Notes: generated by a model not told the origin, from the sequence alone. 64,000 bases of DNA from a virus (IMGVR_UViG_3300042564_002580:53028-117027), one strand, 5' to 3'. Positions 15,101 to 47,333 are shown, numbered from the stretch's first letter. Numbers and translations are program-made.

Positions 15101-18100
15101 AGGATTCAAAGAATGCCTGAGCTGTATGCAGCAGTAGATGCAGCAAATAACGGATATAGTTTTGGCGGGCAGATCATGAGAGGCACATATGGATATGGAA
15201 GAGAAAGCGTATTATCAATATGGGCAAGATTAGTTAACTCTAAGGATTATCCAAAAGTTATTAAAGCAGCAACAATTGCCTCTGATGCTGCAATATTGTC
15301 AGCTCTTACTGGAATGGATATTAAAGACGCTACAAAACGCACAACTTCAGATTATGATTCAGCAACAAAGCATGCTAAAAAAGCTGCTAATGCAAATGGA
15401 ACAACAAAACTGGAAGAGTTTGTAAAAGCAAGAACAGCTCAGTTGATTAAATTAAGCAAAGAGCATCCAGATGCAAACTTGATTTTAGATGCCTATTCAA
15501 ATAAAAATAAATATGATCAGTCTGCAAAAGCATCTGGACACAAAAAAATTGATACAACGAACTACACAAGAACAATGCTGTCCGTAGTTGATGATCTAGT
15601 TGCTCAAGGAATTATAAGCCCAGGACAAGCCAAAAAGGTTCTTGGAATTTTAGGTGATGTTTCAGCTTCACCCGATCCTATTCATAAATCTCATTTTATG
15701 ACTGCAAAAGAATCTGCTTCAATCTTTAAGCCAGGAGAGCTAGAAAAGCTACTTGTAGCAGATGGAATGTCAAAAGCCGAAGCAGCAAAGTATGCTGGTA
15801 TTACTGGAGTTAGATCAAACAACTATGTTGGTCAATCTGCAGGATTAATGGGATCTTTTAATACCATGTTTGCTGGAATAGCATCAGGCAAGGGCGGCAA
15901 CTTTAAAGATGAGATTTCTCCATTTCAAGATGAGGCGAAGCGGAATTTTATAGAAGGAATTAAGAAGATTAAAGCTAAGCTAGGTATAAAAGGCAAAACA
16001 ACAATGCCTGAAATTATTAAACAGCTTACTACGCTGAAAATGAAATCTGGAGGTGGAATGTATGGCAGAATGATTCCAACACTCGGTGGAAGGTTAGCTT
16101 CCATGAACAGTTCTTGGATGAGACCATTAACTGGTCCAGCTGTTGGATTTTTTAACGCAGGAGGTCCAGTTGGTCCTGCTGATCTTTCAACAATAGGTAA
16201 CTACGAAGATTCTTCAGGAATATTTCAGCGCAACGTTGGGATGGACCCTAAGCTGGGATTTTTAATGGGGGGAATGATTCCAGGTGGATCTATATCTAGA
16301 GGCAGATCAAATTATGGAAATATTGCTCCTGCCCTAAGATTGCTTGCACCAGATAAACAATTAAAGATTTTAGCAAAGGCAAGAGAATTAAGCTCAAGAG
16401 GATCGCTAGGTAAATTTGCTGATATGCCAGTAACTGAATATGGGCATCAAATTTCTGCAAGCACAGGAATGAGTTATCCCGTACCTGGTGTATCTGGACT
16501 GTATAAAGTCGGTAACAAAAAAGTTTTTGTTAAAGGTGTTCCTAATGAATTAACTGCAGTTCATGAGCCAATTGGCACTCAAATTGCAAGAGATCTTTTT
16601 GGAGTACATTCTCCAGTACAAACAGCTAGAACAGTTGCAAATCCATTAGATCCAACAAAAAAAACCAAGCTACTTGCTCTAGAATCAGATTACGACCCAC
16701 GCTTTGCAAACACTAATGTGCCATGGGATGAAGATACAGTCCTTAGACAGCTTGCTAATTCTCTTCTTTTAAACAACAAAGATTTATCTAGAGCAAACGT
16801 GTATGGTAATTTTAATCCAGATGTTGGACAAGCTGGAGTATTACCTAAAGCATCTGGTAATACACGTCTTGCATCAGCTGATGAAATGAACTCTATGGAA
16901 AAGCAAGCAATGATTAATCTGCTTGCCGTTAAAGGTGGAGCAAGAAAAGATTTTGCACGTGACACTGCCCCAATAATTTCTCAAATGAGCCCAAAAAAAT
17001 ACGGCAAAAAAATGAAAAAGATATTAGAAGATGCCCGTCCAAAATTAGTAAAAATAATAAATGGTTTACCTGTAGATCTTAGACCACCTTATGAAGCAAT
17101 GCTCAAAAGATTGGATGATGGTATCGAGGTTGATTGGAGTAAATATCATGCCGTACATGCTAATCCAAAATATCTTAATGCTGGAGGACCAGTCGGTGGA
17201 GGTCCAGTTAAGAGAAATAGATCTGCTTACGGAAGGCCAGGCAACCCAGCAAAAAGAGCAGCTTGGGAAGCAGAACAACGTGCACAAAGAGAAAGGGATG
17301 CAGCGGCAGCAAGATCTAGAGCAGCATCTCATCAGATAAGTGGACAGCAGGCTTTAACAAGCGGCTTAGGTAGAGAAGCAGTAAGAACAGGTACAACAAG
17401 TTTCTACAACCCTGGTCAGGTAATTGTTAACAACGCCCTTGACCCATTTAGAAACTCTGCAATGATGAAGGCTAGATACCTTGAAGCTGGATTTAATAAC
17501 CTTGCAAATTCTGCAACAAAGGGTGCAGTTACATTAAGATATGGATTGATGACATCTGGAACTCATGTAAAGCAAGCTTATCAAGAGTATACAAAAAAAC
17601 TTGTTAATTCAGGAAGAGCATCACTTGCTACAATGAAAATGAATGCAGCAATAGCGCAAGCCGCTGGAAGCGTTTTTGCATCTGGAGTACGTGCAGAAAA
17701 TGCTGGAAGACTTGGACAAGCTTATCCTGGACAATATAGTATTAATCCCGCAACTGGACTTCCAATAAACACTGCAACTGGAAAGCAAGTTGGAATGATG
17801 AGTGGACCAGCAATTATTGGAAACTGGAAGCAAGCTGGAGATGGTGTCAACAGCAGAAAAGTTGGAACTTTAGGTTTTAGAAAAACAGAGTACATGGTTG
17901 GCGATAAAGTAATGACCGCAGCGCAGATGAAGGCTGCTGGAATGGCTGTTCCTCAAAAGCCAATGGGTATGGGCGGCGGAGCGATGGGCGCATCTATGGC
18001 TGGATCAATGGCTGGTATGGCAATGATGAGCCAAGAAAAAGTTTTGGGTATGAGTGGACAAGCTGCTGGTATGGGAGTTATGGGAGCCGCATCAATATTG

Positions 18101-20743
18101 CCTTTCATAGCTGGACCAGCTATAACTAAAGCTAGGGCTGGTCTTTCAGGATTAGGATCTGGCGTCAAGGCAATTACTGCAGGCACAATGAGTTTAACTA
18201 AAGCTATGCATAATGTTTTAATGGTTGCAAAAGGATTTGGCCCAGTAGGGTTAGCAATAAGCGCAGTTTTTGCAGGCTTTAAGATTTACAAGAAAGTTCA
18301 GGATGATTGGCAAGACGCAAGAATGGGTCTTTCCATGACAGCTAAAGCTGCAGAGCAAGCTGGAGTAAAGTATTTTAACTTGCAAGAAACAATGCAGGGG
18401 TACATAGATAAACAAAAGTTAGCAACAGCAGCCGCAAAGGGTTCAGCAAATAGTTCAATTGGAATGCCTGGTCTTCCTCAGTCTATAGAAGAAATGAAAA
18501 AGGCAAAAGAAGAAGGTAAGGGATTAAAGGATCTAATTGAATCTATTAATAGATCAACTAGTACGCAAGAAACACAAAGACTGGTATCTAATCAAAAAGC
18601 TCAATACATTGCAGCTGGAATGAGTATTGAAGAAGCAAATAAAAAGATATATGGTGCTTTAGCTAATAGCGATAAAGCATCTCAAGCTTATACCATGCTT
18701 GCAAATACAGAATTTGGAGCAATAATAGACAAGTCTTCAGCAGCAGAATTTTCTGTTGGAAACCTTGTAAATACTTTAAGTAAGGGCCCAGGAACTGCCG
18801 ATTGGTATAAGGAAGTCGGGAATGGTTTTGAAGGCCTTATAAACGTTTTCTCTAATGCTACTAAATCTCTAATTGGCACTAAAGACGAGCTTGGAAACGT
18901 TATAGACGAGTATAAAGCATATGAAATGGTTATGTCAAAAGCAGAAGCAAATAATCCTGGAATGAATAAGGAGATTGGTTCAGACGTATATAGTAATCTT
19001 GAAAAGACCCAACCCCTTCTAGCATCAATAACAAATCAAACAGACAGCATAAAGGGAATTTTAGCAAAATGGAAGTTATTTACTTCTGGAATTAATATAG
19101 ATTTAAGTAAGATTGATTCTACCTTAGCAATAAAATTAGCTGGGTTTACATCAGCAATTGGAACAGGTATTGCTGAATTAACTAAAGCTGCTGATAACGC
19201 GACAACATATGGGAAAACTGGAGCAGCCTTAGCTAAGCTACAAAAAACAATCGCTGCAACTTCAGCTGCTTCACAAAGAGCAAATGCAGCTTCTCAAAGA
19301 AGCGCACAGGAAGAATTAAAAGCAATTGCTAAAAAGATTAAGCTTATAGAAGAAGAAAAGAATAAAAAGCTAGAAGCGTTAAGAGCAACTCAAGATGCAT
19401 CAAACTATGCTTTAGAGCTACAAAAGCTACAAATAGAGTATGCCGATGCGGTTTCTCGTGGAGATATGGCAGGAGCTGCATCAGCAAGAATAAGCATTGA
19501 TCAGCTTACATCTAATAGACAAAGCGAGCTTGCGGCTAAAGCCATTGAAGATGCTGCAAATAAAGCCAAAGCGCCTTTAGAAAAAGATGCTGAGCGCATA
19601 CAGGATAGGTCTGATAAAAAAACAATTGCTTTTCAGAATGCCACGGATAATGCCGCATTAGCTGGCGAAATAATGACAACCATTACTGGATTCCAAACAA
19701 AGTATAATGATTTAACAACTAGAGCCATTAACGCAAAGCTTCTTCCTGATAAAGAAAGAGCAGCAGAAGAGTTAAAAATTACTGAAGAGCTAGTAGCTCT
19801 TATTAAGGAAATTCAAAAGGCTGGTTCTGGAAGTACTACATCTGCAAAAACAGTAAGAGAGGCATTCGGCACGTATTTTGATAAAGACGGAAAGCCAATG
19901 TCTCCTGGAACCACAACTTCTGGATCTCCAGTTGGATTTGATAAAAATGGTAAGCCTATATTGTCTAGCACAACAACAGTCAATAAAGGTGTTACAGATG
20001 CATTCCAAAGAGATTTAGCTGCTGTAGAAAAGCTAGCAACAGCAATAACTGGAAATGTAACAATTAAGCAACTTCGTGATGACGTTGTAAAAGCACTAGG
20101 AGGCTACAAGGCACCCGCACCAAAGGGTACTGTTGAATTTGGAAAGGATACAGTTCAGCAAGGTAGAGGAAAAAATGCAATAGAGGCTGCTAAAAACGCA
20201 AGATCTTCTGGATCCTCAAAGATGGTTAGCATTAATGATGTTGTATGGTATAGATTTAGCTGGAATGGGAAAGAGTACATAAGTAATGATTCTGGAACAG
20301 AAGTTTATTCATGGGATGACCAGAAAAAAACTAAGGGTGCTAGAGTTAAGTATGCCAACGGAGGATTAGCTAAAAACTTTGCTCCAGGTGGAGGAGTTTA
20401 TGGTCCAGGAACTGGAACATCAGATTCTATACCAGCAATGTTATCAAATGGTGAATATGTTATTAGGGCTCAATCGGTTCAAGCAATAGGGGTTCCTATG
20501 CTAGACAAGATAAACAAATTAGCAGGCGGAGGAATGGTAAGTTATGATGTTCCTAGGATGTCAAGCGGTGGCCGAATAAGATTTAACGAAGGAGGCCTTG
20601 CTTCATCTGGAAGCACATTGTATAATATCAATGTAGAGCTTAATGGAACTAATCTTACAGCGGATCAAGTTGCTGCATCAATTCATAAAGAAATGAGAAT
20701 TAGAGAAATGGCTGCTGGAGTAAATAGAAGGGTTGGTGGATAA
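12170..20743 (+). CDS. Tape measure protein (2857 aa) with internal cargo domains
   Basis: TP901-type TMP core (AVENQTSTTLNDL..AIPKAG, EGANALKSGL), hydrophobic segments, coiled coils, C-terminal GPGTGTSDSIPAMLSNGEYVI. Confidence 0.93.
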   Translation: MADEQIVTSIVAKADLSSLVSEVHRASSSLQQLQRELLASNKAISASTKLANNLFRDTLTSSGQFSSHFVNLNSDVDKFGKNLDAGRLKLKNYFQTFREHATTQKGMIRELAKEQVMLQNSVLQPLGRNAQGLMQYNVMIPRGLDAVKNSAQLARMELQIMNRALSEGAGSLINWGKNTQWAGRQLTVGLTVPLTMFGSAAGKAFREADQELVRLTKVYGGLAATSAADLKAIREEVVQTAKTLSQTMGASFKDTIALGADIAATGKMGNDLLGSIEETTRLSILGEVDRQDAMKATLSIQTAFKQNTEQLTESINFLNAVENQTSTTLNDLVEAIPKAGPVIQQLGGSIEDLALYMTAMREGGINASEGANALKSGLASLINPTKQTVGMMSDFGIDVMGMVAKNTGNTTGLLIDLQGALDKLDPLSKARALEQMFGKFQFARMSALLNNLGKEGSQTLQVMDLMKASTSDLAGIAERELGMITESASGKYRKAIETLKATLAEVGEEFLGVATKIINAASKILDFFTNLPSPIKKALTFMAGFTALVGPLIMLTGVLANFFGYITKGIVQLRSFFMRANGWKMLTPEIIAAQKAAEMVENAFYSDAAAAQVLHNALQKLVLDYQNLQAASMKNAVPVNPGVTTVAGNTIVAAGRRVVDPNDPYVGDPNTRAMSHIRPRDPNAPATLFGGVPGAIPVNRGISRTPQIYMNDRLPNIEGLTSVKGISTGIVAPEAAKFHALMATLGMQTEQEVAMLKKTIAMGGTVSRELLDTFDDILPITQRFANSAAEQSALIVQQMRNAEITVDQAKARILALNAQIEADMGAAVSMYAAGKGRSIDLTKAPMMNQPVVDANGQFTLRDLYKKESNRTVMEEFGRVRGVRTFGAPYSIQTTRLPKFNEGGGVEDFGPGKTMVSGPSSINYDDRLGSVPIGGYVLNQSASMDPANAPLVEMAAATYEDGGKITAALTPREVVFGPRIQRMPELYAAVDAANNGYSFGGQIMRGTYGYGRESVLSIWARLVNSKDYPKVIKAATIASDAAILSALTGMDIKDATKRTTSDYDSATKHAKKAANANGTTKLEEFVKARTAQLIKLSKEHPDANLILDAYSNKNKYDQSAKASGHKKIDTTNYTRTMLSVVDDLVAQGIISPGQAKKVLGILGDVSASPDPIHKSHFMTAKESASIFKPGELEKLLVADGMSKAEAAKYAGITGVRSNNYVGQSAGLMGSFNTMFAGIASGKGGNFKDEISPFQDEAKRNFIEGIKKIKAKLGIKGKTTMPEIIKQLTTLKMKSGGGMYGRMIPTLGGRLASMNSSWMRPLTGPAVGFFNAGGPVGPADLSTIGNYEDSSGIFQRNVGMDPKLGFLMGGMIPGGSISRGRSNYGNIAPALRLLAPDKQLKILAKARELSSRGSLGKFADMPVTEYGHQISASTGMSYPVPGVSGLYKVGNKKVFVKGVPNELTAVHEPIGTQIARDLFGVHSPVQTARTVANPLDPTKKTKLLALESDYDPRFANTNVPWDEDTVLRQLANSLLLNNKDLSRANVYGNFNPDVGQAGVLPKASGNTRLASADEMNSMEKQAMINLLAVKGGARKDFARDTAPIISQMSPKKYGKKMKKILEDARPKLVKIINGLPVDLRPPYEAMLKRLDDGIEVDWSKYHAVHANPKYLNAGGPVGGGPVKRNRSAYGRPGNPAKRAAWEAEQRAQRERDAAAARSRAASHQISGQQALTSGLGREAVRTGTTSFYNPGQVIVNNALDPFRNSAMMKARYLEAGFNNLANSATKGAVTLRYGLMTSGTHVKQAYQEYTKKLVNSGRASLATMKMNAAIAQAAGSVFASGVRAENAGRLGQAYPGQYSINPATGLPINTATGKQVGMMSGPAIIGNWKQAGDGVNSRKVGTLGFRKTEYMVGDKVMTAAQMKAAGMAVPQKPMGMGGGAMGASMAGSMAGMAMMSQEKVLGMSGQAAGMGVMGAASILPFIAGPAITKARAGLSGLGSGVKAITAGTMSLTKAMHNVLMVAKGFGPVGLAISAVFAGFKIYKKVQDDWQDARMGLSMTAKAAEQAGVKYFNLQETMQGYIDKQKLATAAAKGSANSSIGMPGLPQSIEEMKKAKEEGKGLKDLIESINRSTSTQETQRLVSNQKAQYIAAGMSIEEANKKIYGALANSDKASQAYTMLANTEFGAIIDKSSAAEFSVGNLVNTLSKGPGTADWYKEVGNGFEGLINVFSNATKSLIGTKDELGNVIDEYKAYEMVMSKAEANNPGMNKEIGSDVYSNLEKTQPLLASITNQTDSIKGILAKWKLFTSGINIDLSKIDSTLAIKLAGFTSAIGTGIAELTKAADNATTYGKTGAALAKLQKTIAATSAASQRANAASQRSAQEELKAIAKKIKLIEEEKNKKLEALRATQDASNYALELQKLQIEYADAVSRGDMAGAASARISIDQLTSNRQSELAAKAIEDAANKAKAPLEKDAERIQDRSDKKTIAFQNATDNAALAGEIMTTITGFQTKYNDLTTRAINAKLLPDKERAAEELKITEELVALIKEIQKAGSGSTTSAKTVREAFGTYFDKDGKPMSPGTTTSGSPVGFDKNGKPILSSTTTVNKGVTDAFQRDLAAVEKLATAITGNVTIKQLRDDVVKALGGYKAPAPKGTVEFGKDTVQQGRGKNAIEAAKNARSSGSSKMVSINDVVWYRFSWNGKEYISNDSGTEVYSWDDQKKTKGARVKYANGGLAKNFAPGGGVYGPGTGTSDSIPAMLSNGEYVIRAQSVQAIGVPMLDKINKLAGGGMVSYDVPRMSSGGRIRFNEGGLASSGSTLYNINVELNGTNLTADQVAASIHKEMRIREMAAGVNRRVGG

Positions 20744-28279: not shown

Positions 28280-31200
28280 ATGAGCTGGTGGAGAAAAGCA
28301 AACCTAAACGATGCTGGTAATATTGATGGCTGGATAAAAATAAGAAGCATTTGGAGAAAAACTAATTTAGGTGATGCAGGATCAACAGACGGTTGGTTAA
28401 GAATAAGAAGCGCTTGGAGATTTCAAGGATTAAATGCGTTAGGCGCTGGAATTTGGTATAAAATTTTTGGAGGGGAGTCTCCTTATCCAAAAGAAAACCC
28501 AAAGCTAATATTTGTTTCTCCAGATTCAAGCACTTCTGAAATACAATGCACTCAGCAAGATAAGATGTATGTTACAAGAGGGAAATGGTACGAAGACCCA
28601 TTATCATTTTTAATTAAAATACAAAGGTCTATAATCTCAAATTGGGATGCTCCAACAACATTAGTTAGCCAGGAGCTAGAGTACACAACATATCTAGATT
28701 CAGACTATTTAGATGAAGTTCCTAAGTTGCCTGCAGATAGACCAACAATAACATTAGACGACGTCAAAGCTAAAAGAGGATTTAGGGCACAGGTTCAAGC
28801 TGGGCAGGATGCCAATCCAACAGAATCAGACTACGCACTTGCAACTTCATGGTACCCAAGCCCAACAGGAATATTCCCAAGACTAACATTTGGATTTACT
28901 ACATATAGCACAGGAGATCAAATTGTTGAAGATGAAACAATCAGTATGCCTGAATTTAAAATATTTGGTTTTAAGTGGCAGTATCTTACTTCTTCTGCAG
29001 CATCATATCCAAACGGTCAGTACTTTCCATCATCTCGAACAGATGAGTTTATTGGGAAACAAATAATTGAGTTAACTGATTTTTATGGGGTTAGGATAGG
29101 TGCATTGCAAGAAGTTGATGTTTTGCCAATTCATCAATATTCTGGAAGTATAACATACACTCAAGCAATGATAGATTCTGGCGATGATTATATTATAAAT
29201 GTTTATTCGGTTGCAAAAGATTATTACTATAATAGCGGACTGTCTTTAGATGGACATATATCTGATCCAAATGAAACATCAAGAATTGCATCTTATGTAT
29301 TTACCCCTCCAAGGGAAATAGAAAACCCAGAAATAACAATATCAAATAGGACAAAAAGCTCTGTAGATATATCCTGGTATTCTCCAGATGCGGAAAGATA
29401 TAAGGTTAATATAATTGATTCTATTACAGGTAACTCTTTGCCTGGCTATCCATTAACCTCAACAACAAATACTTCTGCCAGCCCTTTTGGATTAACGGAA
29501 AACAGACTGTATACCGTTTTGGTAACGGCACTTGCTGGAGAAGGAGACAAGTACAAAAGCGACGAGGTTTCTAAAAGCTTTAGAACATTGTCGTCTGGAA
29601 TTGCAGCAGAATTAGGAATGCCTTACGACATAACATCAACAGGGTATAAGGTTGACATAACAAATTGGAGCACTATCAGTTCATTTGATATAACAGTTTC
29701 TGCAACAAGTGGAAGTGCGACAAGGTCCTCCGAAGTTATATCTGTAAGCAATGTTACATCGGGAGCCAATTCATGTCTAACAGCAACAACATCTAAAATT
29801 GATAATATAAACTTAACTTCAGTTTCCTATGAGTCAAAAGAGTCTGCTGCTAGATGTATTGTTATCGGAGGTACCTGGTACTGCTTATCTCTTGTTACGG
29901 GTGGCCTTTGTTCTAAATCAACCGAGACATACGACAAAACAATAAATGGATCATACTATGCAATTGTATGCTCTCAAACAGATAACCTATGCTGCCCTTC
30001 AGTTGTTCTTGAGCCAAAAGTCTACGGTGAATGGGTCACAGGACTTTGCACAGTAGCTCCACAAGATCCACAAAGAACAAGAACAAGGACATGGACCCAA
30101 ATTCAAAAAACAACTGCTCAAAATTGTGTTATTACAAATGTAGAGCTTTCTGGTGTAGATATAGAACAGATTGATTGCTGTGTACCAACATCCACTCTTG
30201 GAGCAAAAACTTATGGGACACCAAATGCTTGGGGCACATGTAATTTAAATACTGGACAAATTGGAAGAACTGTTCCGTGGACAGCAACAAAAACTAATTT
30301 TACTAGAGACTGTACCACAACTACAACAGAAGAAAGCGGTCTTGAAGTTCAGTATAAAGATTGTTGTACTGCCAGCTCATCTTTGGGAACTAAAACTTAT
30401 AGCGACTGGTCTCCATATGGATCATGTATTCAAGGAGAAAGAGCAAGCTATAGAACCTGGACTGCTATTCAAACAAATAATACAATTAACTGTACCACAA
30501 CATCTAACGAAGTTAATGGTACAGAATATAGATACACATCATGTTGTACAGCTGGTTGTACTTTAGGAACTAAAACTTACGGTGATTGGTCAGCTTACGG
30601 TTCATGTGTTCAGGGGGAGAGAAGACGACAAAGATCCTGGACTGCTATAAATACCTGTATAGATTCAAGCTGTAATATTATTTCTCAAAATGAATTAAAT
30701 AGCGTAGAGTATGAGTACACATCATGCTGCGTACAATCATGTACTACTGGAGCAAAAACTTATGGTGCATGGACAGCCTATGGATCCTGTATCCAAGGTG
30801 AACGTGCTAGATCGAGGAGTTGGACTGCTACACAATCATGCTTTACAACAAGTTGTACTAATACAACTGAAACAATTAGCGGTACAGATTTTGAATACAC
30901 TGGCTGCTGCACGGCAAGTAGTACAACTGGCACTAAAACTTATGGTGCATGGACAGCCTATGGATCCTGTATCCAAGGTGAACGTGCTAGATCGAGGAGT
31001 TGGACTGCAATACAGACTAATATTGATTCTAGCTGCAATACCACTACAACAGAAGTTAACGGTACAGATTTTGAATATACTTCATGCTGCACGGCAGGAT
31101 GTACAACTGGTGATAGAAGTTATAGCCCATGGGGGTCATGGGGTTCCTGTAGCCAAGGAGAACAAGCTAGAATTAGAACGTGGACTGCTATAGAGACATG

Positions 31201-31978
31201 TATTAATTCAAGCTGTAATGTTTTGTCTACCAGAGAAGTTAGTGGTTTTGAAATAGAATACAGAAACTGTAGCACTATTAATACTATTAATACAATTAAT
31301 ACTATTAATACAATTAATACTATTAATACAATTAACACTATTAATACTATTAACACAATTAACACTATTAATACAATTAATACTATTAACACTATTAATA
31401 CAATTAACACTATTAACACTATTAATACAATTAATACTATTAACACTATTAATACAATTAATACAATTGATTCAGGCGGCGGCGGCGGATGTCACGTATT
31501 TGGTACACAAATACAAATGTTTGACGGAACATTTAAAAACATTGAAGATTTATATATTGGGGATGAAATCATGGCGGCTAATATACCAGGCTTAGATGAT
31601 AATGAATTAGATATTAATAATCTATTATTATGGTCATCTGAAGACATTTCTGAAACAACAAAAACTTCTGCTATGGTTACAAATATATTTACTAGATCAT
31701 ATGGACAATACTACCTTATTAATGATACAATTAAAATAACTTATGAGCATATAGTTCCTGCACGTAAATCTGGGGTATGGAAATTTATTCAAATTGAAGA
31801 ATTAGAAATTGGAGACAATATTATGAGTGATACGTTAGACGTAGTCGAAGTAGCATCTAAAATATTAATAAATGAAGATGTAGAGACTATATCAATAAAC
31901 ATTGAAACAAAAGACGTTTATTTTGTTGATGGCTTAATGGCACACAATATTAATCCAGATAAGATGCAGGAAACATAA
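28280..31978 (+). CDS. Tail-associated adhesin-like protein: FN3 + 7 Cys-rich TSP1-like repeats + (TIN)21 + C-terminal Hint domain
   Basis: Domain motifs read directly from the translation; see findings. Confidence 0.8.
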   Translation: MSWWRKANLNDAGNIDGWIKIRSIWRKTNLGDAGSTDGWLRIRSAWRFQGLNALGAGIWYKIFGGESPYPKENPKLIFVSPDSSTSEIQCTQQDKMYVTRGKWYEDPLSFLIKIQRSIISNWDAPTTLVSQELEYTTYLDSDYLDEVPKLPADRPTITLDDVKAKRGFRAQVQAGQDANPTESDYALATSWYPSPTGIFPRLTFGFTTYSTGDQIVEDETISMPEFKIFGFKWQYLTSSAASYPNGQYFPSSRTDEFIGKQIIELTDFYGVRIGALQEVDVLPIHQYSGSITYTQAMIDSGDDYIINVYSVAKDYYYNSGLSLDGHISDPNETSRIASYVFTPPREIENPEITISNRTKSSVDISWYSPDAERYKVNIIDSITGNSLPGYPLTSTTNTSASPFGLTENRLYTVLVTALAGEGDKYKSDEVSKSFRTLSSGIAAELGMPYDITSTGYKVDITNWSTISSFDITVSATSGSATRSSEVISVSNVTSGANSCLTATTSKIDNINLTSVSYESKESAARCIVIGGTWYCLSLVTGGLCSKSTETYDKTINGSYYAIVCSQTDNLCCPSVVLEPKVYGEWVTGLCTVAPQDPQRTRTRTWTQIQKTTAQNCVITNVELSGVDIEQIDCCVPTSTLGAKTYGTPNAWGTCNLNTGQIGRTVPWTATKTNFTRDCTTTTTEESGLEVQYKDCCTASSSLGTKTYSDWSPYGSCIQGERASYRTWTAIQTNNTINCTTTSNEVNGTEYRYTSCCTAGCTLGTKTYGDWSAYGSCVQGERRRQRSWTAINTCIDSSCNIISQNELNSVEYEYTSCCVQSCTTGAKTYGAWTAYGSCIQGERARSRSWTATQSCFTTSCTNTTETISGTDFEYTGCCTASSTTGTKTYGAWTAYGSCIQGERARSRSWTAIQTNIDSSCNTTTTEVNGTDFEYTSCCTAGCTTGDRSYSPWGSWGSCSQGEQARIRTWTAIETCINSSCNVLSTREVSGFEIEYRNCSTINTINTINTINTINTINTINTINTINTINTINTINTINTINTINTINTINTINTINTINTINTIDSGGGGGCHVFGTQIQMFDGTFKNIEDLYIGDEIMAANIPGLDDNELDINNLLLWSSEDISETTKTSAMVTNIFTRSYGQYYLINDTIKITYEHIVPARKSGVWKFIQIEELEIGDNIMSDTLDVVEVASKILINEDVETISINIETKDVYFVDGLMAHNINPDKMQET
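29990..31270 (+). repeat. Seven ~180-nt (~60-aa) Cys-rich tandem repeats
   Basis: Each unit reads CC..G.KTY..W..YGSC.QGER.R.R.WTA....C; 74 identical nt at 30755-30828 and 30935-31008. Confidence 0.92.
31274..31468 (+). repeat. 9-nt coding tandem repeat ACW-ATT-AAY encoding (Thr-Ile-Asn)x21 plus Thr-Ile
   Basis: 195 nt; variation only at synonymous third positions. Confidence 0.95.
31490..31948 (+). other. Hint (intein-like/BIL-type) autoprocessing domain, 153 aa
   Basis: Cys1 (CHVFGTQI..DG..KNIEDL.IGD), block B TYEH, terminal YFVDGLMAHN; +1 residue is Ile. Confidence 0.88.
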
Positions 31979-32556
31979 TGGTGCAAGATTTAGGTAATAA
32001 TATATTCATGTACAAGAATGTTATAGGCTCAGACTTAGATATATTAAAAGAAGTTAATTCTATATTTGTCACTTACAATAGAGGATTTGCAGAGTCTACA
32101 ATGAATGATGGCGATTACGATAAAGCTCTTAGGTCCTGCACCGTCTTTTCATTGTATACAAATAAACAAGAAGACGTTGACTACAATAATTTAAAGAAGA
32201 TATTAAATAAAAAAATAGATATTGCTCTTTCAGGATGCATACTGGATTTTGTTAAAAAATCTGGAATAAAGATTAAAGAAAGAGAACCCTGGGAAATATT
32301 GAAATATGAAAAAGGCCAGATGGTTACTTGGCATTGTGATGATGGGGAAGTTCACCCATCAAAAATATCATTCGTTTACTACATAAATGATGATTACGAA
32401 GGCGGAGAGATACAGTTTAAGAATAAGGTGTACACTATGCCAATAAAGCCATCTAGAGATAGCCTTATTGTTTTTCCTTCAGGCATGGACTATATACATA
32501 GAGTTACTCCAGTAACAGAGGGAACAAAATATTCAGTAATATCTTTTGGGAAATAG
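31978..32556 (+). CDS. 2OG-Fe(II) oxygenase (P4H-like)
   Basis: WHCD, YINDDYEGGEIQF, HRVTPVTEGTKYS. Confidence 0.9.
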   Translation: MVQDLGNNIFMYKNVIGSDLDILKEVNSIFVTYNRGFAESTMNDGDYDKALRSCTVFSLYTNKQEDVDYNNLKKILNKKIDIALSGCILDFVKKSGIKIKEREPWEILKYEKGQMVTWHCDDGEVHPSKISFVYYINDDYEGGEIQFKNKVYTMPIKPSRDSLIVFPSGMDYIHRVTPVTEGTKYSVISFGK

Positions 32557-32618
32557 GTAAAATAAGGTAGACAAAATTTTAACTAAATGCTAGAATATTA
32601 TAATGTTACGGAGATATT

Positions 32619-32852
32619 GTGAATAAATCAGATATGCAAGGAAGCACATATATGGTGCTTGTTGATGGTGAGTACGCTGGGTGGTTTAACATTGCTGGCC
32701 CTGGAACCGATCTATTAAGAGCTGGTCTTTCAAGCACACCAATTTTAGTAGATATGGAAGACATTGAAATTGATATTCCAGATTTACCAAAAGCTGGTGC
32801 TAATTATTTTTGGAACGGTAAGTCTTTTGAATTGAGAGAAATAAATGGCTAG
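32619..32852 (+). CDS. Hypothetical protein (possible fibre accessory)
   Basis: GTG start with GGAG RBS; C-terminal YFWNGKSF; TAGACA-17-TAGAAT promoter-like site upstream. Confidence 0.6.
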   Translation: MNKSDMQGSTYMVLVDGEYAGWFNIAGPGTDLLRAGLSSTPILVDMEDIEIDIPDLPKAGANYFWNGKSFELREING

Positions 32853-33081
32853 CAAGTGGGAGCAGGTTAAAAAGCTTGTGAACTCTAATGAAGTCAAGCC
32901 ATGGGACTTTTTGAACCCAAATACTGAATATGCATCTGAAGAAGATTCGTCTTATAGATATTCATTGTGCCAAGCCTGTCCTAAATTTAATAATGGTGTA
33001 AAGACTTGCCAAGAGTGCGGATGCTTTATGCCAGCAAAAACAAAGCTACAGGGCGCCACCTGCCCTATAGGTAAATGGTAA
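32845..33081 (+). CDS. Small Cys-rich protein, DUF6171-like
   Basis: R..LC..CP......C..CGCFM.AKTKL...CPIGKW. Confidence 0.7.
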   Translation: MASKWEQVKKLVNSNEVKPWDFLNPNTEYASEEDSSYRYSLCQACPKFNNGVKTCQECGCFMPAKTKLQGATCPIGKW

Positions 33082-33107
33082 TGGTATAATATAAATAGGA
33101 GGTAATC

Positions 33108-33329: not shown

Positions 33330-33340
33330 ATTAGGTAAAA

Positions 33341-43955: not shown

Positions 43956-44260
43956 TGTCAGAAAGAGCGGAAGTAAAAAGAGACGGGGCGAAGGCTCAAA
44001 AAAATAGTGGTCGAGGTAATTACCAAAAGGGTGACGCTAGGTGGAAAATGTTCCTTGTTGACTATAAAGAATCTAAATCTTCATTTAATTTAAATAAGCC
44101 TGTGTGGGCTAAAATATGTACAGATACTTTTAAAGTTGATAGAGATATGCATCCAGCACTTAAAGTTATAATAGGTTCAGATAATAAGGTCAGGCTTGGT
44201 ATAATAGAGTGGTCAGTTTTGGAAGAACTGATTGATTTCTGGGAGGAAAAACATGTTTAG
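43955..44260 (+). CDS. PD-(D/E)xK nuclease / Hjc-like resolvase (putative)
   Basis: SE..., NSGRG..KGD, VDYKE pattern. Confidence 0.6.
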   Translation: MSERAEVKRDGAKAQKNSGRGNYQKGDARWKMFLVDYKESKSSFNLNKPVWAKICTDTFKVDRDMHPALKVIIGSDNKVRLGIIEWSVLEELIDFWEEKHV

Positions 44261-45245
44261 TTTAGATGAAAAGCACCAGATAATGCCATTTGTTACCTTA
44301 TATAAAAACGCAATTAAAAACCCTAAAGACTTTCTAGAAATAATTAAATCTTCTGAAGGCCAAATTAATAGCGACGATTCCCCACACTCTTGGAGCGCAT
44401 GGGATAATTTTGGAATAAAAGCAAACTTGCATGATATACATATGCAATCAGATAAAGACATCCACCCAGGCAAAAACATACTTGATGAATTTAATAATTT
44501 AATTAATGCTGGTCTAGATGAGTATATAAAATATTGGATTCTAGATAATAATGCTAGTAAATATAAGACAACAAATCCAGAGCATTGGAAAAACATATTC
44601 CCAGAGTTTGTTAAAAATTGGAACTACAAAACAGATTTGGTAGAGCTGACAGAAGACTTTGAGTCTTGCGAAACAGTAATGATTGCTACTGGAAATCCTG
44701 GCTGGATAAGATCTGGAATAGATATCCTAAAACACAAAGAGAATACTGTCGATAAGTTTGCAATAGGTTATCACATTGACACAGATGGAAGCTTAGACAC
44801 ACCAGGACCAAAGACAGTTATTACTGCTACCATATATATTAACGACGACTATGAAGGTGGAGGAGTCTCTTATCTAAATGAGTTTGATGGAACTGTGGTA
44901 AACTACAAGCCATCAGCAGGGGACCTTGTAATATTCCCATCATCAAAACCTTTTTTTCACGCAGCACTTCCATTAAGCGGAGATAAGCCAAAATATTTAG
45001 CTAGAAAATTTTTAAGATGGAAAAGCACTGGGTCTTTAGATTGGGAAAATGAAATTAAAAAAAATGGAGAAGACTTTACTCTAAGACTGTATACTGAAAA
45101 AAGAAAAATTGAATCAGCAATGGGATATTACACAAAAAGAGTTTTTCTTAAAGATGAAGATAGGTCTACGCAAGAACAGCACGGAGACCCGTTCTTTGTA
45201 AAAGATATAATTGATTTTAATAAAAAAATAAATGGGGTCCTATAA
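44253..45245 (+). CDS. 2OG-Fe(II) oxygenase, paralog 1 of tandem trio
   Basis: YHID, IYINDDYEGG, FHAALP, KY; GGAGG RBS supports ATG 44253. Confidence 0.88.
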   Translation: MFSLDEKHQIMPFVTLYKNAIKNPKDFLEIIKSSEGQINSDDSPHSWSAWDNFGIKANLHDIHMQSDKDIHPGKNILDEFNNLINAGLDEYIKYWILDNNASKYKTTNPEHWKNIFPEFVKNWNYKTDLVELTEDFESCETVMIATGNPGWIRSGIDILKHKENTVDKFAIGYHIDTDGSLDTPGPKTVITATIYINDDYEGGGVSYLNEFDGTVVNYKPSAGDLVIFPSSKPFFHAALPLSGDKPKYLARKFLRWKSTGSLDWENEIKKNGEDFTLRLYTEKRKIESAMGYYTKRVFLKDEDRSTQEQHGDPFFVKDIIDFNKKINGVL

Positions 45246-46336
45246 TGTGGGAAGGACATCCAAACTTTGCCCCTGGGTATAAAAAGAACTACGATCTTTC
45301 AAAAAAACATGACCTGTTCCCATACATATCTGTATACTCTGGAGGAATTCCAAACCCAGAAGAAGTACTAGAGGTAATAAAAAAATCAGAGTCTTTAGAA
45401 AAAATTGGACCATACTTAAGCAAATGGGAAAGGTGGTACGATTTTGGTTTAAAATCAAGACTATGCCAACACTCAGAAACAAAAAATTTAATAACATTAA
45501 ATTCTGAGCATTTAAATATGTTAACTGAAGACGAAGATAAAACCTTTTACGAGCAAGAAAAACTTTATTTCGAAATAGACGCAGCAGTTTATTCAGCAAT
45601 GCAAGATTATTTAGATAACTGGGTGGACAAGCCCTTTGACCCATCAGATTTTACTGATGATTGGGAGTATAAGAAATCAATTTTCCCAGAGTGGTTGCCA
45701 GATTGGAATATTAGGGAGACATCTGGAAAGATAGGAACTGGTTGGCTACAAAGCTCTTATGATGTTTTAAAACATAATTCTGAAACTGATACTAGAAATA
45801 ACCGTGAGTATGCAATTGGATTTCACACGGATAATAAAGCTAGCATGGTTTCAATGCCAGGACCAAAGCCAATTTTAACAGCAACAATTTATTTAAACGA
45901 CGATTATGAAGGCGGAGAGGTTTCCTTTCTCGCAGATAAAAGCTCATCTGTAATAACTTATAAACCAAAAGCTGGTGACATAACAGTGTTCCCATCATAC
46001 AATCCCTTTTTTCATGCTGCTCTACCAGTAAGTGGAGGCAATAAGTATTTAATTAGATATTTTTTATGTTATTATTATGCAGGATCAGAAGAATATATGG
46101 ATGGAGTAAAAGAGCATGGTGAAAATGTCTGGAAAAAAATGCAGCAGTACAGAATCATTGCTGAAGATAACTCTGGAATGCACGAAAGACATGTTCTAAT
46201 GCCAGGGGATAATCCGCAAGAAACATTTATGAATTGGTCAAAAATTTATAGAAAGCAATCTTCTATAAATCGTCCACCATTTTTTGCAGAGAACGTAAAG
46301 TATATTGATGGGAGAAAAGATTTTGAAGAGCTATGA
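45245..46336 (+). CDS. 2OG-Fe(II) oxygenase, paralog 2 of tandem trio
   Basis: FHTD, IYLNDDYEGGE, FHAALP, KY. Confidence 0.88.
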   Translation: MWEGHPNFAPGYKKNYDLSKKHDLFPYISVYSGGIPNPEEVLEVIKKSESLEKIGPYLSKWERWYDFGLKSRLCQHSETKNLITLNSEHLNMLTEDEDKTFYEQEKLYFEIDAAVYSAMQDYLDNWVDKPFDPSDFTDDWEYKKSIFPEWLPDWNIRETSGKIGTGWLQSSYDVLKHNSETDTRNNREYAIGFHTDNKASMVSMPGPKPILTATIYLNDDYEGGEVSFLADKSSSVITYKPKAGDITVFPSYNPFFHAALPVSGGNKYLIRYFLCYYYAGSEEYMDGVKEHGENVWKKMQQYRIIAEDNSGMHERHVLMPGDNPQETFMNWSKIYRKQSSINRPPFFAENVKYIDGRKDFEEL

Positions 46337-47333
46337 GATATTTAAGCAGTGCGTTGTTTATCAAGTTGATGATTTCGATCACGATTTAGTTCTCGATGTA
46401 ATAAAGAATTCAGAATCACTTGAAGATGGATTTTTAATAGAAAAATGGAATGATTGGTATACGTTTGGATCAAAATCAAAATTTGCTGATCCTAGACAAG
46501 AAAAAAATCCTATAAAATGGATATCTGATCTAGACGATATACATACAGACGCCCATCTAAAAGTTAAAAATGTTATAGACTTATGCATAAATGATTACGT
46601 TGAAAAGTATTTAGATCACAATGAATCATCTTACCCAGAGTATGTTGATTTTTCTAATATGAATAAGGGGTCAAAGACAGAGGACCTCCTTGGCTTACAG
46701 ATAGTTACTTGCGATAGCACTGGCGATCCCATTTTTAGAGACCCTACTAGTGGATGGACTCAGGGCTCTTACGACTTACTAAAACACAATCCAGATACAA
46801 ATAGAGAGTATGCAATAGGTTGGCACACAGATAGACCAAGTGGTTTAGATAGCTCCCCAGGCCCAAAATCTATTCTTACTACAACAATTTATTTAAATGA
46901 TGACTACGAAGGCGGAGAAGTTGCATTTCTAAAAGAAGGTGATGATGAGGTAATTGTTTACAAGCCAAAAGCTGGTGACATAGTTATTTTCCCTTCATGC
47001 GAACCGTTCCACCACGCTGCTATGCCAATAAATTCTAGTTCGTCAAAATATTTTATTAGAAATTTTTTAACTTGGTCATATGAGGGAAGTAAAGAGTGGA
47101 TTGAATCTGCAAAAAAATTTGGAATAGATGAATGGATACAGATGGAGCACCAAAGGGTTCAGTCAGAAAATATTTCTGGGAAAGGAAGAAAGCATGTTGT
47201 TCTTCCAGGGGGAATAAATAAAAAAGAAAAATGGTCACTGGCTGATCCATATTATTCAGAGTCTCAGGTAAATGCAGAAGACTATTACATAAAAGAAGTT
47301 ATATATATGGATGGAAAGTCTTTACAAAAATAA
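46305..47333 (+). CDS. 2OG-Fe(II) oxygenase, paralog 3 of tandem trio
   Basis: WHTD, IYLNDDYEGGE, HHAAMP, KY; true start may be TTG 46323. Confidence 0.88.
   Translation: MMGEKILKSYEIFKQCVVYQVDDFDHDLVLDVIKNSESLEDGFLIEKWNDWYTFGSKSKFADPRQEKNPIKWISDLDDIHTDAHLKVKNVIDLCINDYVEKYLDHNESSYPEYVDFSNMNKGSKTEDLLGLQIVTCDSTGDPIFRDPTSGWTQGSYDLLKHNPDTNREYAIGWHTDRPSGLDSSPGPKSILTTTIYLNDDYEGGEVAFLKEGDDEVIVYKPKAGDIVIFPSCEPFHHAAMPINSSSSKYFIRNFLTWSYEGSKEWIESAKKFGIDEWIQMEHQRVQSENISGKGRKHVVLPGGINKKEKWSLADPYYSESQVNAEDYYIKEVIYMDGKSLQK

What the first reader, a model, noticed from the sequence alone, without database searches (positions are those of the whole stretch)
28280..33081. Candidate autoprocessing/modification system: adhesin-(TIN)21-GGGGG-Hint, coupled 2OG oxygenase and small Cys protein
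Seen: the last fibre-region gene ends in a low-complexity stalk, five glycines and a Hint domain with intact Cys1, TxxH and terminal His-Asn. The +1 residue is Ile and only 9 aa follow, and there is no homing endonuclease. Its stop overlaps the start of a 2OG oxygenase (TAATG), followed by a 77-aa protein and a DUF6171-like Cys-cluster protein. Known: without Cys/Ser/Thr at +1 canonical splicing cannot complete; Hedgehog and BIL Hint domains instead cleave or transfer the N-terminal part to an external nucleophile through a thioester. Inference: the Hint activates a C-terminal poly-Gly, reminiscent of ubiquitin's GG, to release, cap or covalently ligate the fibre to a partner, while the oxygenase hydroxylates the repeat stalk. 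This would be a phage-encoded post-translational maturation pathway for a receptor-binding appendage.
Basis: partly seen in the sequence, partly recalled or inferred. Interest (0 to 1): 0.85.

Follow-up and report, generated by a model that had tools for sequence, protein, structure and literature searches.

The report
Self-processing Hint cassette ending phage fibre
The last tail-fibre protein of this uncultured phage ends in a small intein-like self-processing domain behind five glycines, and this domain has been swapped in together with a protein-hydroxylase gene, so it is a natural test case for how phages tailor fibre tips.

Summary
The 1232-aa fibre protein (28280-31978) ends in (TIN)21-TID-S-GGGGG, Cys1071, TYEH and His-Asn, followed by Ile and a 9-residue tail. 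Its stop overlaps the start of a 2OG oxygenase.

The C-terminal domain folds as a Hint domain (pLDDT 91). Its nearest solved relatives are the Tetrahymena BIL2 domain and the Clostridium thermocellum BIL domain. It belongs to a very large family (1094 clusters) of C-terminal Gly-Cys...His-Asn modules. In 113 of 117 of these, the short tail carries a lysine.

The best reading is a self-excising BIL-type module that probably passes the Gly5 acyl end to Lys1228. BIL2 does this with its own substrate.

New here: two sister phages have the same fibre protein but lack the TIN repeat, the Hint domain and the oxygenase together. The 1.36-kb block 31261-32619 is therefore one exchangeable cassette. The 77-aa and DUF6171-like genes lie outside it.

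The oxygenase is an intact PHD/P4H-type protein hydroxylase. However, it is one of 12 paralogue matches in this genome, and its target is unknown.

This scan has noted the Gly-Hint-Lys module before on other DNA. My four paper searches found no description of it in phages.

The parts
28280..31978 (+). Fibre/adhesin gene, 1232 aa. It has an N-terminal region with a duplicated W-R-K motif, one fn3-like domain (aa 351-431), Cys-rich repeats, the TIN stalk, Gly5, the Hint domain and a 9-aa tail.
30173..31267 (+). Six Cys-rich repeats of about 60 aa each (invariant CC, G, Y, G, C, G, WTA, C, Y). No Pfam or PDB sequence match.
31261..32619 (+). Exchangeable cassette: TIN stalk + Gly5 + Hint + tail + oxygenase. 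In sister phage L096 it is replaced by a 363-bp Pro-Phe tail, with 83% identical DNA on both sides.
31274..31471 (+). (TIN)21 plus TID: a coding 9-nt tandem repeat that forms the low-complexity stalk. Its length and third residue vary among relatives (TIN/TVN/TID/TIA).
31475..31489 (+). Five glycines (aa 1066-1070), the predicted acyl end of the mature fibre.
   Evidence: position -1 is Gly in 61 of 114 family domains
31490..31948 (+). Hint (BIL-type) domain, aa 1071-1223. Key residues: Cys1071 (31490-31492), Thr1154..His1157 (31739-31750), His1222-Asn1223 (31943-31948).
31949..31975 (+). 9-residue tail INPDKMQET with Lys1228 (31961-31963), the candidate internal nucleophile.
31978..32556 (+). 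PHD/P4H-type 2OG-Fe(II) protein hydroxylase, 192 aa, with intact His119-x-Asp121...His174 and Lys184. Its start overlaps the fibre stop.
32619..32852 (+). 77-aa protein ending in a WNGKSF motif. It lies outside the cassette and is kept in sister phages. A role as fibre-assembly helper is possible but only a weak lead.
32845..33081 (+). 78-aa DUF6171-like Cys-cluster protein. It lies outside the cassette. It recurs after repeat-tailed fibre-region genes in distant phages.

Best explanation
The fibre protein is made as a precursor. Its last 162 residues are a type-A bacterial-intein-like (BIL) Hint module that removes itself after translation.

Proposed steps:
1. Cys1071 attacks the Gly1070 carbonyl, helped by Thr1154 and His1157, and forms a thioester.
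2. The flexible 9-residue tail brings the side-chain amine of Lys1228 to that thioester, and the fibre's Gly5 end is passed to it as an isopeptide bond.
3. Asn1223 cyclises and frees the 153-residue Hint domain.

The mature fibre would then end in the (TIN)21 stalk and Gly5, capped by a small branched peptide.

What is shown: the fold, the intact catalytic residues, family-wide conservation of Cys1, TxxH, His-Asn and a tail lysine, and a solved relative (BIL2) that performs lysine-directed isopeptide splicing. What is inferred: that this copy is active, that Lys1228 is the acceptor, and what the processing is for.

The Hint module, its TIN stalk and the downstream PHD/P4H-type hydroxylase form one 1.36-kb cassette that replaced a Pro-Phe tail. 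I therefore think the hydroxylase acts on the cassette-bearing fibre end. I put this at about 0.35 and cannot name the residue.
For: Fold: the AlphaFold model of aa 1062-1232 has pLDDT 91.3 and pTM 0.84. Foldseek top hits are BIL2 6y75_A (E 3.6e-9, TM 0.72/0.80) and the C. thermocellum BIL 2lwy (4.7e-9), then mini-inteins, then Hedgehog 1at0 (2e-5).

Family: 1094 cluster representatives match at E<=1e-3 and 286 at E<=1e-10. Among the 150 best:
- Cys at position 1 in 114 of 114 aligned domains.
- TxxH in 134 of 155.
- His-Asn in 140 of 146.
- Tail of 25 aa or fewer in 124 of 138 proteins.
- Cys/Ser/Thr at +1 in only 9 of 124.
- Gly at -1 in 61 of 114.

Lysine:
- 113 of 117 short tails after His-Asn contain Lys. 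Background composition predicts 26. Arg occurs in 21 against 20.4 expected.
- Dealing the tail residues out anew gives a mean of 70.9 and a maximum of 84 in 5000 shuffles.
- The 6 domains without His-Asn have no tail Lys (Fisher p = 5e-8, but 5 of these 6 are one subfamily).
- All 7 distinct tails of the close and cassette-sharing relatives have Lys at +1 to +5. The two degenerate copies (L027, L028) have lost both His-Asn and Lys.

Precedent: in the passages I read of PMC8616854 section 2.4, BIL2 forms a K(epsilon-NH2)-C-terminus isopeptide and conjugates ubl4 to ubl5 or to Ras.

Cassette:
- Sister phages L091 and L096 have the same fibre protein (DNA identity over the shared part 77% and 83%; N-terminal tblastn 73% and 78%). 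They end in Pro-Phe repeats and lack TIN, Hint and oxygenase, and the 77-aa and DUF6171-like genes follow directly.
- Homology with L096 breaks at 31260 and resumes at 32620.
- All 11 relative contigs that have the Hint also have the oxygenase next to it.
- L022 carries (TIN/TID/TIA)n-GGGG-Hint-FSEKL on a different fibre protein, again followed by an oxygenase (Hint 36% and oxygenase 43% identical to ours).

Oxygenase:
- His119, Asp121 and His174 are invariant and residue 184 is Lys or Arg in all 18 aligned sequences.
- The model has pLDDT 88.7. Its top hits are PHD2 (4.7e-11), algal P4H 3gze (8.1e-10) and the chlorovirus collagen prolyl hydroxylase 5c5t (3.5e-9).
- A complex prediction of the Hint module with the oxygenase gave weak support: score 0.43, best of 3 controls 0.00. 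The mark was reached by 58 of 80 solved complexes and 2 of 110 mismatched pairs. At 0.60 or under, only 7 of those 80 solved complexes reached it, and so did both mismatches that passed. The runs agree in at least 60% of contacts and the partner's pLDDT is at least 82. Such a pass is more often wrong than right unless the guess was likely beforehand.
Against: - No chemistry is shown.
- The position of the tail lysine varies from +1 to +15 across the family. That fits a substrate on a flexible tail but gives no fixed geometry.
- Hydrophilic C-terminal tails are generally rich in Lys, Glu, Asp and Pro, and these tails are.
- The oxygenase link is limited to one lineage. Five Hint-ended fibre loci from other lineages (L001, L002, L100-L102) have no oxygenase within 5 kb.
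- This genome has 12 PF13640 matches, 10 of them over the cut-off, so a neighbouring oxygenase is not rare.
- The TIN repeat has no proline, although the enzyme looks like a prolyl hydroxylase.
- The presence or absence pattern in the sister phages may reflect a single exchange event.
- The Pfam PT-HINT score is below the gathering cut-off (21.0 against 27.7 bits).
Confidence: 0.55

Rival explanations
1. Plain self-cleavage. The thioester at Gly1070-Cys1071 is hydrolysed by water, Asn1223 cyclisation drops the tail, and the fibre simply ends in a free Gly5 carboxylate. The Hint domain would be a disposable folding or assembly aid, working like the self-cleaving C-terminal chaperone domains of tailspikes.
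For: The catalytic residues for both cleavages are intact and conserved. There is no +1 nucleophile. In the relatives P0033 and P0043 the Hint domain sits directly before a Peptidase_S74 chaperone domain (E 1e-8 and 2e-10). This places it among disposable C-terminal fibre modules.
Against: Plain cleavage at the N-terminal junction needs neither His-Asn nor a tail. Yet His-Asn is kept in 140 of 146 domains, and a lysine, but not arginine, is kept in 113 of 117 tails, even in tails of 1 to 3 residues.
Confidence: 0.2
2. Conjugation to another molecule. The Gly5 thioester is attacked by a lysine or another amine of a different molecule, such as a neighbouring virion protein or a host-surface component, so that the fibre tip becomes covalently attached. 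The tail lysine would be only a fallback.
For: BIL2 is reported to conjugate its N-terminal domain to ubl5 and also to an unrelated protein, Ras (passages read). The module sits at the distal end of many fibre-region proteins of very different length, 91 to 3399 aa.
Against: The near-universal lysine in the protein's own tail argues that the internal reaction is the selected one. No partner is identifiable in the neighbourhood. A thioester would have to survive until assembly or host contact, and nothing here addresses that.
Confidence: 0.1
3. The Hint domain is kept as a structural or receptor-binding tip and does not process itself.
For: RefSeq labels the homologous 477-aa proteins of Erwinia and Dickeya jumbo phages 'virion structural protein'. 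Two degenerate copies (L027, L028) have lost catalytic residues and are still encoded.
Against: The catalytic residues are conserved across more than a thousand clusters, while the rest of the domain diverges to 25-40% identity. The label says nothing about which part of the protein is in the virion.
Confidence: 0.05
4. The oxygenase has nothing to do with the Hint-bearing fibre end. It is one more member of this phage's large set of PHD/P4H-like enzymes, whose likelier targets are the Pro-Phe tails of other fibre-region proteins or small molecules, and it only travelled along with the cassette.
For: The genome has 12 PF13640 matches. A second fibre cluster ends in (SPPFFPPGFF)8-GGG and is followed by five such enzymes. 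Pro-Phe coding repeats lie directly upstream of related oxygenases in at least 12 further loci (L023-L026, L029, L031, L032, L066, L070, L071, L079, L083). The TIN repeat has no proline. Published proposals for cyanophage oxygenase arrays are DNA repair, 2OG balance or secondary metabolites (passages read in PMC3037559 and PMC2938197).
Against: The oxygenase is gained or lost together with TIN-Hint. The pair recurs at about 40% identity on a different fibre protein. The stop and start overlap. The complex prediction gave weak support: 0.43 against a best control of 0.00, with the caveats and counts given under the best explanation.
Confidence: 0.5

Closest known systems
BIL2 domain of the Tetrahymena thermophila BUBL1 polyubiquitin-like locus (PDB 6Y75, 6TMM)
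   Same: It is the best structural match (E 3.6e-9). It has a Cys1 and terminal Asn Hint domain. Its N-terminal partner ends in Gly, and a lysine downstream is the acceptor. It is reported to form an isopeptide bond without ATP (passages read).
   Different: Sequence identity is 21%. The N-terminal partner here is a phage fibre stalk, not a ubiquitin-like domain. The C-terminal partner is a 9-residue tail, not a folded domain. The host is a bacteriophage. Activity is untested here.
Type-A bacterial intein-like (BIL) domains / Pfam PT-HINT, e.g. the C. thermocellum BIL (PDB 2LWY)
   Same: It is the second-best structural match (4.7e-9). It is a mini Hint domain with Cys1, TxxH and His-Asn, often lacks a +1 nucleophile, and occurs in variable secreted or surface proteins (these family traits are recalled from Amitai 2003 and Dassa 2004, which I did not read here).
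   Different: The PT-HINT Pfam score is below the cut-off. In polymorphic toxins the Hint domain precedes a toxin domain (PMC3482391 tables). Here only a short lysine tail follows.
Self-cleaving C-terminal intramolecular chaperone of tailspikes and fibres (Peptidase_S74)
   Same: It is a disposable C-terminal module of phage fibre proteins. It even co-occurs with this Hint family in P0033 and P0043.
   Different: The fold and chemistry are unrelated (a Ser-Lys dyad, recalled). No S74 match is present in this protein.
Protein prolyl hydroxylases PHD2, algal P4H and chlorovirus PBCV-1 collagen prolyl hydroxylase (PDB 5L9B, 3GZE, 5C5T)
   Same: These are the best structural matches of the oxygenase. 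The HxD...H triad and the basic 2OG-binding residue are intact. There is a viral precedent for hydroxylating the virus's own repeat proteins (entry title only for 5C5T; the biology is recalled).
   Different: Identity is 16-20%. The adjacent repeat here (TIN) has no proline, and the substrate is unknown.
Tandem dioxygenase arrays of cyanophages (Syn9 gp41-gp54; Iyer et al. 2010, PMC2938197)
   Same: These phage genomes also carry many classical 2OG-Fe(II) dioxygenase paralogues. The same paper proposes collagen-like or tail-collar proteins as substrates of co-encoded dioxygenases in bacteria (passages read).
   Different: That paper suggests secondary metabolism for the phage arrays. It makes no link to a Hint domain or to fibre tails in the passages I read.

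Membership tests
Hint (Hedgehog/intein) fold superfamily | Compact Hint beta-fold | tested here: met
   Model pLDDT 91.3. Foldseek found 54 PDB matches at E<=0.001; all of those listed are BIL domains, inteins, Hedgehog or Vint.
Type-A BIL domain | N-terminal Cys/Ser nucleophile, block-B TxxH and C-terminal His-Asn, with no endonuclease insert | tested here: met
   Cys1071, T1154-H1157, H1222-N1223; the domain is 153 aa.
Type-A BIL domain | Sequence membership (Pfam PT-HINT over the gathering score) | tested here: not met
   21.0 bits against a cut-off of 27.7 for the domain alone. Of 50 family members, 30 match PT-HINT and 30 match Intein_splicing at E<=0.01.
Type-A BIL domain | Self-cleavage or splicing activity | not testable with these tools
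   Needs expression and mass spectrometry.
BUBL-type lysine-directed (isopeptide) splicing | A lysine in the C-terminal flank serves as acceptor of a Gly-ended N-terminal partner | tested here: inconclusive
   Gly5 and Lys1228 are present. Lys occurs in 113 of 117 family tails and Gly at -1 in 61 of 114. The bond itself is not testable here.
BUBL-type lysine-directed (isopeptide) splicing | Flanking ubiquitin-like domains | tested here: not met
   The N-terminal flank is a TIN repeat and Cys-rich repeats, and the C-terminal flank is 9 residues.
Canonical intein | Cys/Ser/Thr at +1 and insertion inside a conserved host protein that is restored by splicing | tested here: not met
   +1 is Ile, and only 9 of 124 family members have C/S/T. 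Sister phages lacking the domain have a different tail, not a rejoined sequence.
Hedgehog-type Hog domain | A sterol-recognition region after the Hint domain that recruits the external nucleophile | tested here: not met
   Only 9 residues follow the Hint domain. Hedgehog 1at0 is a weaker structural match (2e-5).
PHD/P4H-type 2OG-Fe(II) oxygenase (Pfam 2OG-FeII_Oxy_3) | Pfam score over the cut-off, HxD...H iron triad, basic 2OG-binding residue, double-stranded beta-helix fold | tested here: met
   54.2 bits against a cut-off of 27. H119, D121 and H174 are invariant and residue 184 is K/R. Top structural matches are PHD2, P4H and vCPH.
PHD/P4H-type 2OG-Fe(II) oxygenase | Hydroxylation of a peptidyl proline | not testable with these tools
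   The substrate is unknown, and the adjacent TIN repeat has no Pro.
DUF6171 | Pfam score over the gathering cut-off | tested here: not met
   21.2 bits against 27. Related evidence: phrog_13558 at 1.6e-16, and the nearest Atlas clusters score 0.94-0.95 with DUF6171 on 28-29% of their members.

The most novel reading that the evidence does not exclude
The Gly5-Hint-Lys module is a phage-encoded, ATP-free protein-ligation device. After the fibre assembles, the Gly5 acyl group held on Cys1071 is transferred to a lysine of another molecule (a neighbouring virion protein or a host-surface component), not only to its own tail, which fixes the fibre tip covalently. The co-inherited PHD/P4H-like oxygenase hydroxylates the cassette (the T-I-N/D stalk, the Hint domain or the lysine tail) and so tunes or gates this reaction with oxygen and 2-oxoglutarate.
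Probability: 0.08. Interest if true: 0.9.

Novelty: new variant of a known kind. Interest (0 to 1): 0.62.

Why it matters
Receptor-binding fibres decide which bacteria a phage can infect, yet little is known about chemical maturation of their tips beyond the self-cleaving S74 chaperone.

This study shows a very large family of fibre-end Hint modules with a conserved lysine tail: over a thousand 50%-identity clusters. My searches found no description of it in phages. The only experimental parallel is a ciliate ubiquitin-like system.

If the lysine-directed reaction holds, phages use intein chemistry to finish or couple their fibres, and the module would be a ready-made, small, ATP-free tool for ligating Gly-ended proteins.

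This window adds a clean natural comparison: the same fibre protein with and without the TIN-Hint-oxygenase cassette. It also gives the first case in my data where a prolyl-hydroxylase-like phage enzyme travels with a proline-free repeat. Both the role of the Hint domain and the long-unknown role of the abundant phage 2OG oxygenases become directly testable.

Tried and rejected
- A megablast of 24000-36000 against cultured phages found nothing.
- A plain sequence search of the Hint domain against PDB sequences gave only non-significant hits (2lwy at E 0.32). The fold search was needed.
- NCBIfam gave no family for the Hint domain, the 77-aa protein, the 78-aa protein or either half of the fibre protein.
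- The promoter and terminator scan of 27800-33600 was within the shuffle range and told nothing about operon structure.
- A profile of the six Cys-rich repeats found no solved relative (best E 0.92). My impression that they resemble thrombospondin type-1 repeats is recalled and untested.
- The 77-aa protein has only weak leads. Atlas scores of 0.86 are to unnamed viral clusters, and 0.78-0.80 to tail-fibre assembly families, which is in the chance range. A 22-residue match to the WDGxSF protein of the second fibre cluster has E 0.025.
- I considered a canonical intein, a Hedgehog-type transfer to a sterol-like nucleophile and an S74 chaperone, and rejected them as memberships (see the membership tests).
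- I considered that the oxygenase might be a homing or DNA enzyme, because PHROG 2297 is labelled 'DNA endonuclease'. I rejected this because the fold matches protein prolyl hydroxylases.
The generality of the oxygenase link therefore rests on 5 outside loci plus the 80 oxygenase-centred loci.
- Four paper searches found no description of a C-terminal Hint-lysine module in phage fibres. The library lacks most subscription journals.

Full report
**Setting.** The window is the last 64 kb of a 117,027-bp uncultured virus record judged 98% complete. All genes near the finding are on the + strand. A 2857-aa tape measure (12170..20743) is followed by tail proteins: 21330..24584 matches phrog_10359 and 24946..25806 matches phrog_9983, with a tail-collar fibre N-terminus. 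Next comes an fn3-bearing 827-aa protein, then the 1232-aa ORF 28280..31978. No cultured phage is close at the DNA level.

**Observation.**
- The protein has exactly 21 TIN units (aa 999-1061), then TID, Ser, five Gly and Cys1071.
- TYEH lies at aa 1154-1157. His1222-Asn1223 is followed by Ile and a 9-residue tail.
- The stop shares TAATG with the start of a 192-aa oxygenase (Pfam PF13640, 54.2 bits against a cut-off of 27).
- A 77-aa ORF without any family follows, then a 78-aa Cys-cluster protein. The latter matches DUF6171 below the cut-off and phrog_13558 at 1.6e-16.
- Upstream of the stalk lie six clear Cys-rich repeats of about 60 aa.

**The Hint domain is real and belongs to a large family.** Pfam alone is weak on it (E 0.04-0.05). 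An exhaustive HMMER search with the 162 C-terminal residues found 1094 cluster representatives at E<=1e-3 and 286 at E<=1e-10. With 50 of these as an alignment, AlphaFold gave pLDDT 91.3 and pTM 0.84. Foldseek ranks the Tetrahymena BIL2 domain first (6y75_A, E 3.6e-9) and the Clostridium thermocellum BIL domain second (2lwy, 4.7e-9). Mini-inteins follow, and Hedgehog comes at 2e-5. Fifty family members scatter over several Pfam Hint-clan models: Intein_splicing 30, PT-HINT 30, Hom_end_hint 24 and Hint 12 of 50. No single curated family captures them.

**Anatomy of the family** (the 150 best representatives).
- The domain sits at the very end of proteins of 91 to 3399 aa.
- Cys is at position 1 in 114 of 114 aligned domains.
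- TxxH is present in 134 of 155.
- His-Asn is present in 140 of 146.
- The residue before Cys1 is Gly in 61 of 114. GG precedes it in 42 and GGG in 33.
- The tail after His-Asn is 25 aa or fewer in 124 of 138 proteins (median 7.5).
- A splicing nucleophile (Cys/Ser/Thr) at +1 occurs in only 9 of 124.
- Sixteen proteins carry two or more Hint domains in tandem.
- Two proteins (P0033, P0043) carry the Hint domain directly before a Peptidase_S74 chaperone domain, and P0033 also has collagen repeats.
- Among cultured phages, the homologue is a 477-aa collagen-repeat protein of Erwinia, Dickeya and Yersinia jumbo phages, labelled tail fibre or virion structural protein. It ends RG|C...THEH...HN|T plus 9 more residues, including a Lys.

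**The tail lysine.**
- Of 117 short tails that follow His-Asn, 113 contain at least one Lys. Background composition predicts 26. Arg occurs in 21 against 20.4 expected, so charge is not the reason.
- Redistributing the tail residues at random gives a mean of 70.9 and never more than 84 in 5000 trials.
- Even tails of one to three residues have it, in 9 of 10.
- The six domains that lack His-Asn have no Lys in the tail (Fisher p = 5e-8). Five of these six are one subfamily, so they are not independent.
- In this phage's own group, every variant tail has Lys at +4 or +5, and L023 ends HN-K. The two degenerate copies, L027 and L028, have lost both His-Asn and Lys.
- His-Asn and a lysine are not needed for simple cleavage at the N-terminal junction, so their joint conservation points to a coupled reaction.
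- In the passages I read in PMC8616854, BIL2, the top structural match, forms an isopeptide between a lysine side chain and the C-terminus of its N-terminal partner. It conjugates that partner to the downstream domain or to Ras without ATP.
- My best explanation is therefore a self-excising BIL-type module that hands the Gly5 end to Lys1228 and then leaves by Asn cyclisation. That this copy is active, and that Lys1228 is the acceptor, are inferences.

**The cassette.** This is what is new in this window.
- Searching viral contigs with the N-terminal 507 aa of the fibre protein gave 10 loci. Eight have the Hint domain and the oxygenase.
- Two (L091 and L096) have the same protein, with the same Cys-rich repeats, but end in Pro-Phe repeats. 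They have no TIN, no Hint and no oxygenase. The 77-aa and DUF6171-like genes follow directly.
- DNA homology between the window and L096 runs to 31260 and resumes at 32620, at 83% on both sides. The intervening 1359 bp here correspond to 363 bp there.
- In all, 11 relative contigs with upstream DNA carry fibre-TIN-Gly-Hint, oxygenase, 77-aa gene and DUF6171-like gene in that order. None has the Hint domain without the oxygenase at this site, or the reverse. Two further contigs (L011, L021) are cut off at the oxygenase.
- L019 and L020 have a Pro-Phe-Tyr repeat followed by TIN-Gly5-Hint, as if the cassette had been added behind the older tail.
- L022 has a different fibre protein, with TPV repeats and another Cys motif. 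It nevertheless ends in (TIN/TID/TIA)n-GGGG-Hint-FSEKL and is followed by an oxygenase, a DUF6171-like gene and a second oxygenase. Its Hint domain is 36% and its oxygenase 43% identical to ours.
- L023 has (FFAPPG)n directly before a Hint domain that ends HN-K, followed by a battery of oxygenases.
- The pairing is thus old and recurs, but only in this group of phages. Five Hint-ended fibre loci of other lineages have no oxygenase within 5 kb.

**The oxygenase.**
- His119, Asp121 and His174 are invariant, and residue 184 is Lys or Arg, in 18 aligned relatives.
- The model (pLDDT 88.7) matches protein prolyl hydroxylases best: PHD2 (4.7e-11), algal P4H with a Ser-Pro peptide (8.1e-10) and the chlorovirus collagen prolyl hydroxylase (3.5e-9). 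It is therefore a protein-modifying type.
- The caveats are strong. The genome has 12 matches to this family, 10 over the cut-off.
A second fibre cluster just upstream of the window ends in an fn3 protein with (SPPFFPPGFF)8-GGG plus 8 residues. It is followed by a 134-aa protein with two WDGxSF motifs, five such oxygenases and a DUF6065 gene.
- Pro-Phe coding repeats lie directly upstream of related oxygenases in at least 12 further loci.
- The general pattern is thus 'repeat-tailed fibre-region protein plus P4H-like enzymes', and proline-rich tails are the obvious substrates.
- Here the repeat next to the enzyme has no proline. The third position of the repeat swaps between Asn, Asp and Ala in relatives. 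I cannot name a target residue.
- A complex prediction of the Hint module with the oxygenase gave weak support: score 0.43, best of three controls 0.00. The mark was reached by 58 of 80 solved complexes and 2 of 110 mismatched pairs. At 0.60 or under, only 7 of those 80 reached it, and so did both mismatches that passed. The runs agree in at least 60% of contacts and the partner's pLDDT is at least 82. The tool rates such a pass as more often wrong than right unless the guess was likely beforehand.
- I put the chance that this enzyme acts on the cassette-bearing fibre end at about 0.35.

**The two small genes.** They stay in place in the phages that lack the cassette, so they are not part of it. 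The DUF6171-like protein recurs after repeat-tailed fibre-region genes and beside oxygenases in L022, L024/L025 and L027, in varying order. Its nearest Atlas clusters are viral. The 77-aa protein has only weak leads towards fibre-assembly proteins. Both are most simply accessory genes of the fibre module, with function unknown.

**Comparison with what is known.** By fold and residues this is a type-A BIL-like Hint domain. It fails the Pfam PT-HINT cut-off, and its context differs from that of polymorphic toxins. It works most like BIL2 of the ciliate BUBL loci but lacks the ubiquitin-like flanks. It is not a canonical intein: there is no +1 nucleophile, and sister genes show replacement rather than a restored host sequence. 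It is not a Hedgehog-type domain either, since no sterol-recognition region follows. Four paper searches found no description of such modules in phage fibres. Published ideas on phage 2OG oxygenases concern DNA repair, 2OG balance or secondary metabolites. Iyer et al. did propose collagen-like and tail-collar proteins as dioxygenase substrates in bacteria.

**Earlier work of this scan.** The scan has noted the Gly-Hint-Lys module (42 notes) and the Pro-Phe tail plus hydroxylase pattern (163 notes) on other DNA. The lysine statistics, the BIL2 match and the second fibre cluster were re-derived here from my own calls.

**Verdict.** This is a new variant of a known kind of self-processing domain, in a large family that is undescribed in phages. 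It comes with a clean natural presence/absence comparison and an unexplained tie to a prolyl-hydroxylase-like enzyme. No chemistry is shown, and the decisive experiments are simple.

Noticed in passing
window 30173-31267: Six Cys-rich repeats of about 60 aa lie in the fibre protein, and a seventh, looser copy may lie just upstream. Invariant positions are CC, G, Y, G, C, G, WTA, C and Y. The W/R-rich core reminded me of thrombospondin type-1 repeats, but no Pfam or PDB sequence match supports that.
   Followed up: partly
window 398..1090, 44232..45245, 45245..46336, 46305..47333, 50866..51453 (and G000:C1 upstream of the window): The phage genome has 12 matches to the P4H-like oxygenase family PF13640, 10 of them over the cut-off. 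They include three tandem genes of 337-363 aa in the window. Two related near-complete genomes also have 12 each.
   Followed up: partly
L103 (G000:C1:44000-54200), 4306-10118: A second fibre cluster in the same genome ends in an fn3 protein with (SPPFFPPGFF)8-GGG plus 8 residues. A 134-aa protein with two WDGxSF motifs follows, then five P4H-like oxygenases and a DUF6065 gene. The Gly run near the end, without a Hint domain, looks like the kind of site where Hint cassettes sit elsewhere.
   Followed up: partly
proteins P0006, P0019, P0030, P0032, P0041, P0072, P0078, P0087, P0097, P0112, P0148: Some family members carry two or more Hint domains in tandem, separated by linkers of only 1-6 residues that usually contain Lys (for example HN-K-P-C and HN-IPPK-C). 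What serial processing would produce is unclear.
   Followed up: no
proteins P0105, P0110, P0136, P0140, P0149: One subfamily ends in His-His instead of His-Asn. Its 12-residue tail has a C-x-x-C motif and no lysine, which suggests a different chemistry or metal binding.
   Followed up: no
proteins P0033, P0043: In these proteins the Hint domain sits between a collagen-like fibre and a Peptidase_S74 self-cleaving chaperone domain, so two different self-processing modules lie in a row.
   Followed up: partly
L100 and L101, 9860-10330: In the lineage of the 1622-aa Hint-ended protein P0014, a second short ORF with a Hint match directly follows the first.
   Followed up: no
window 28280-28430: The fibre protein starts with a duplicated motif of about 22 aa (W-R-K/R..N..D.G...DGW..IRS.WR). 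It is also duplicated in the relatives L004 and L096.
   Followed up: no
L026, L029, L031 (small Pro-Phe repeat proteins): Several Pro-Phe repeat proteins without a Hint domain end in F-K directly after the repeat, so a C-terminal lysine also marks the tails that lack Hint.
   Followed up: no
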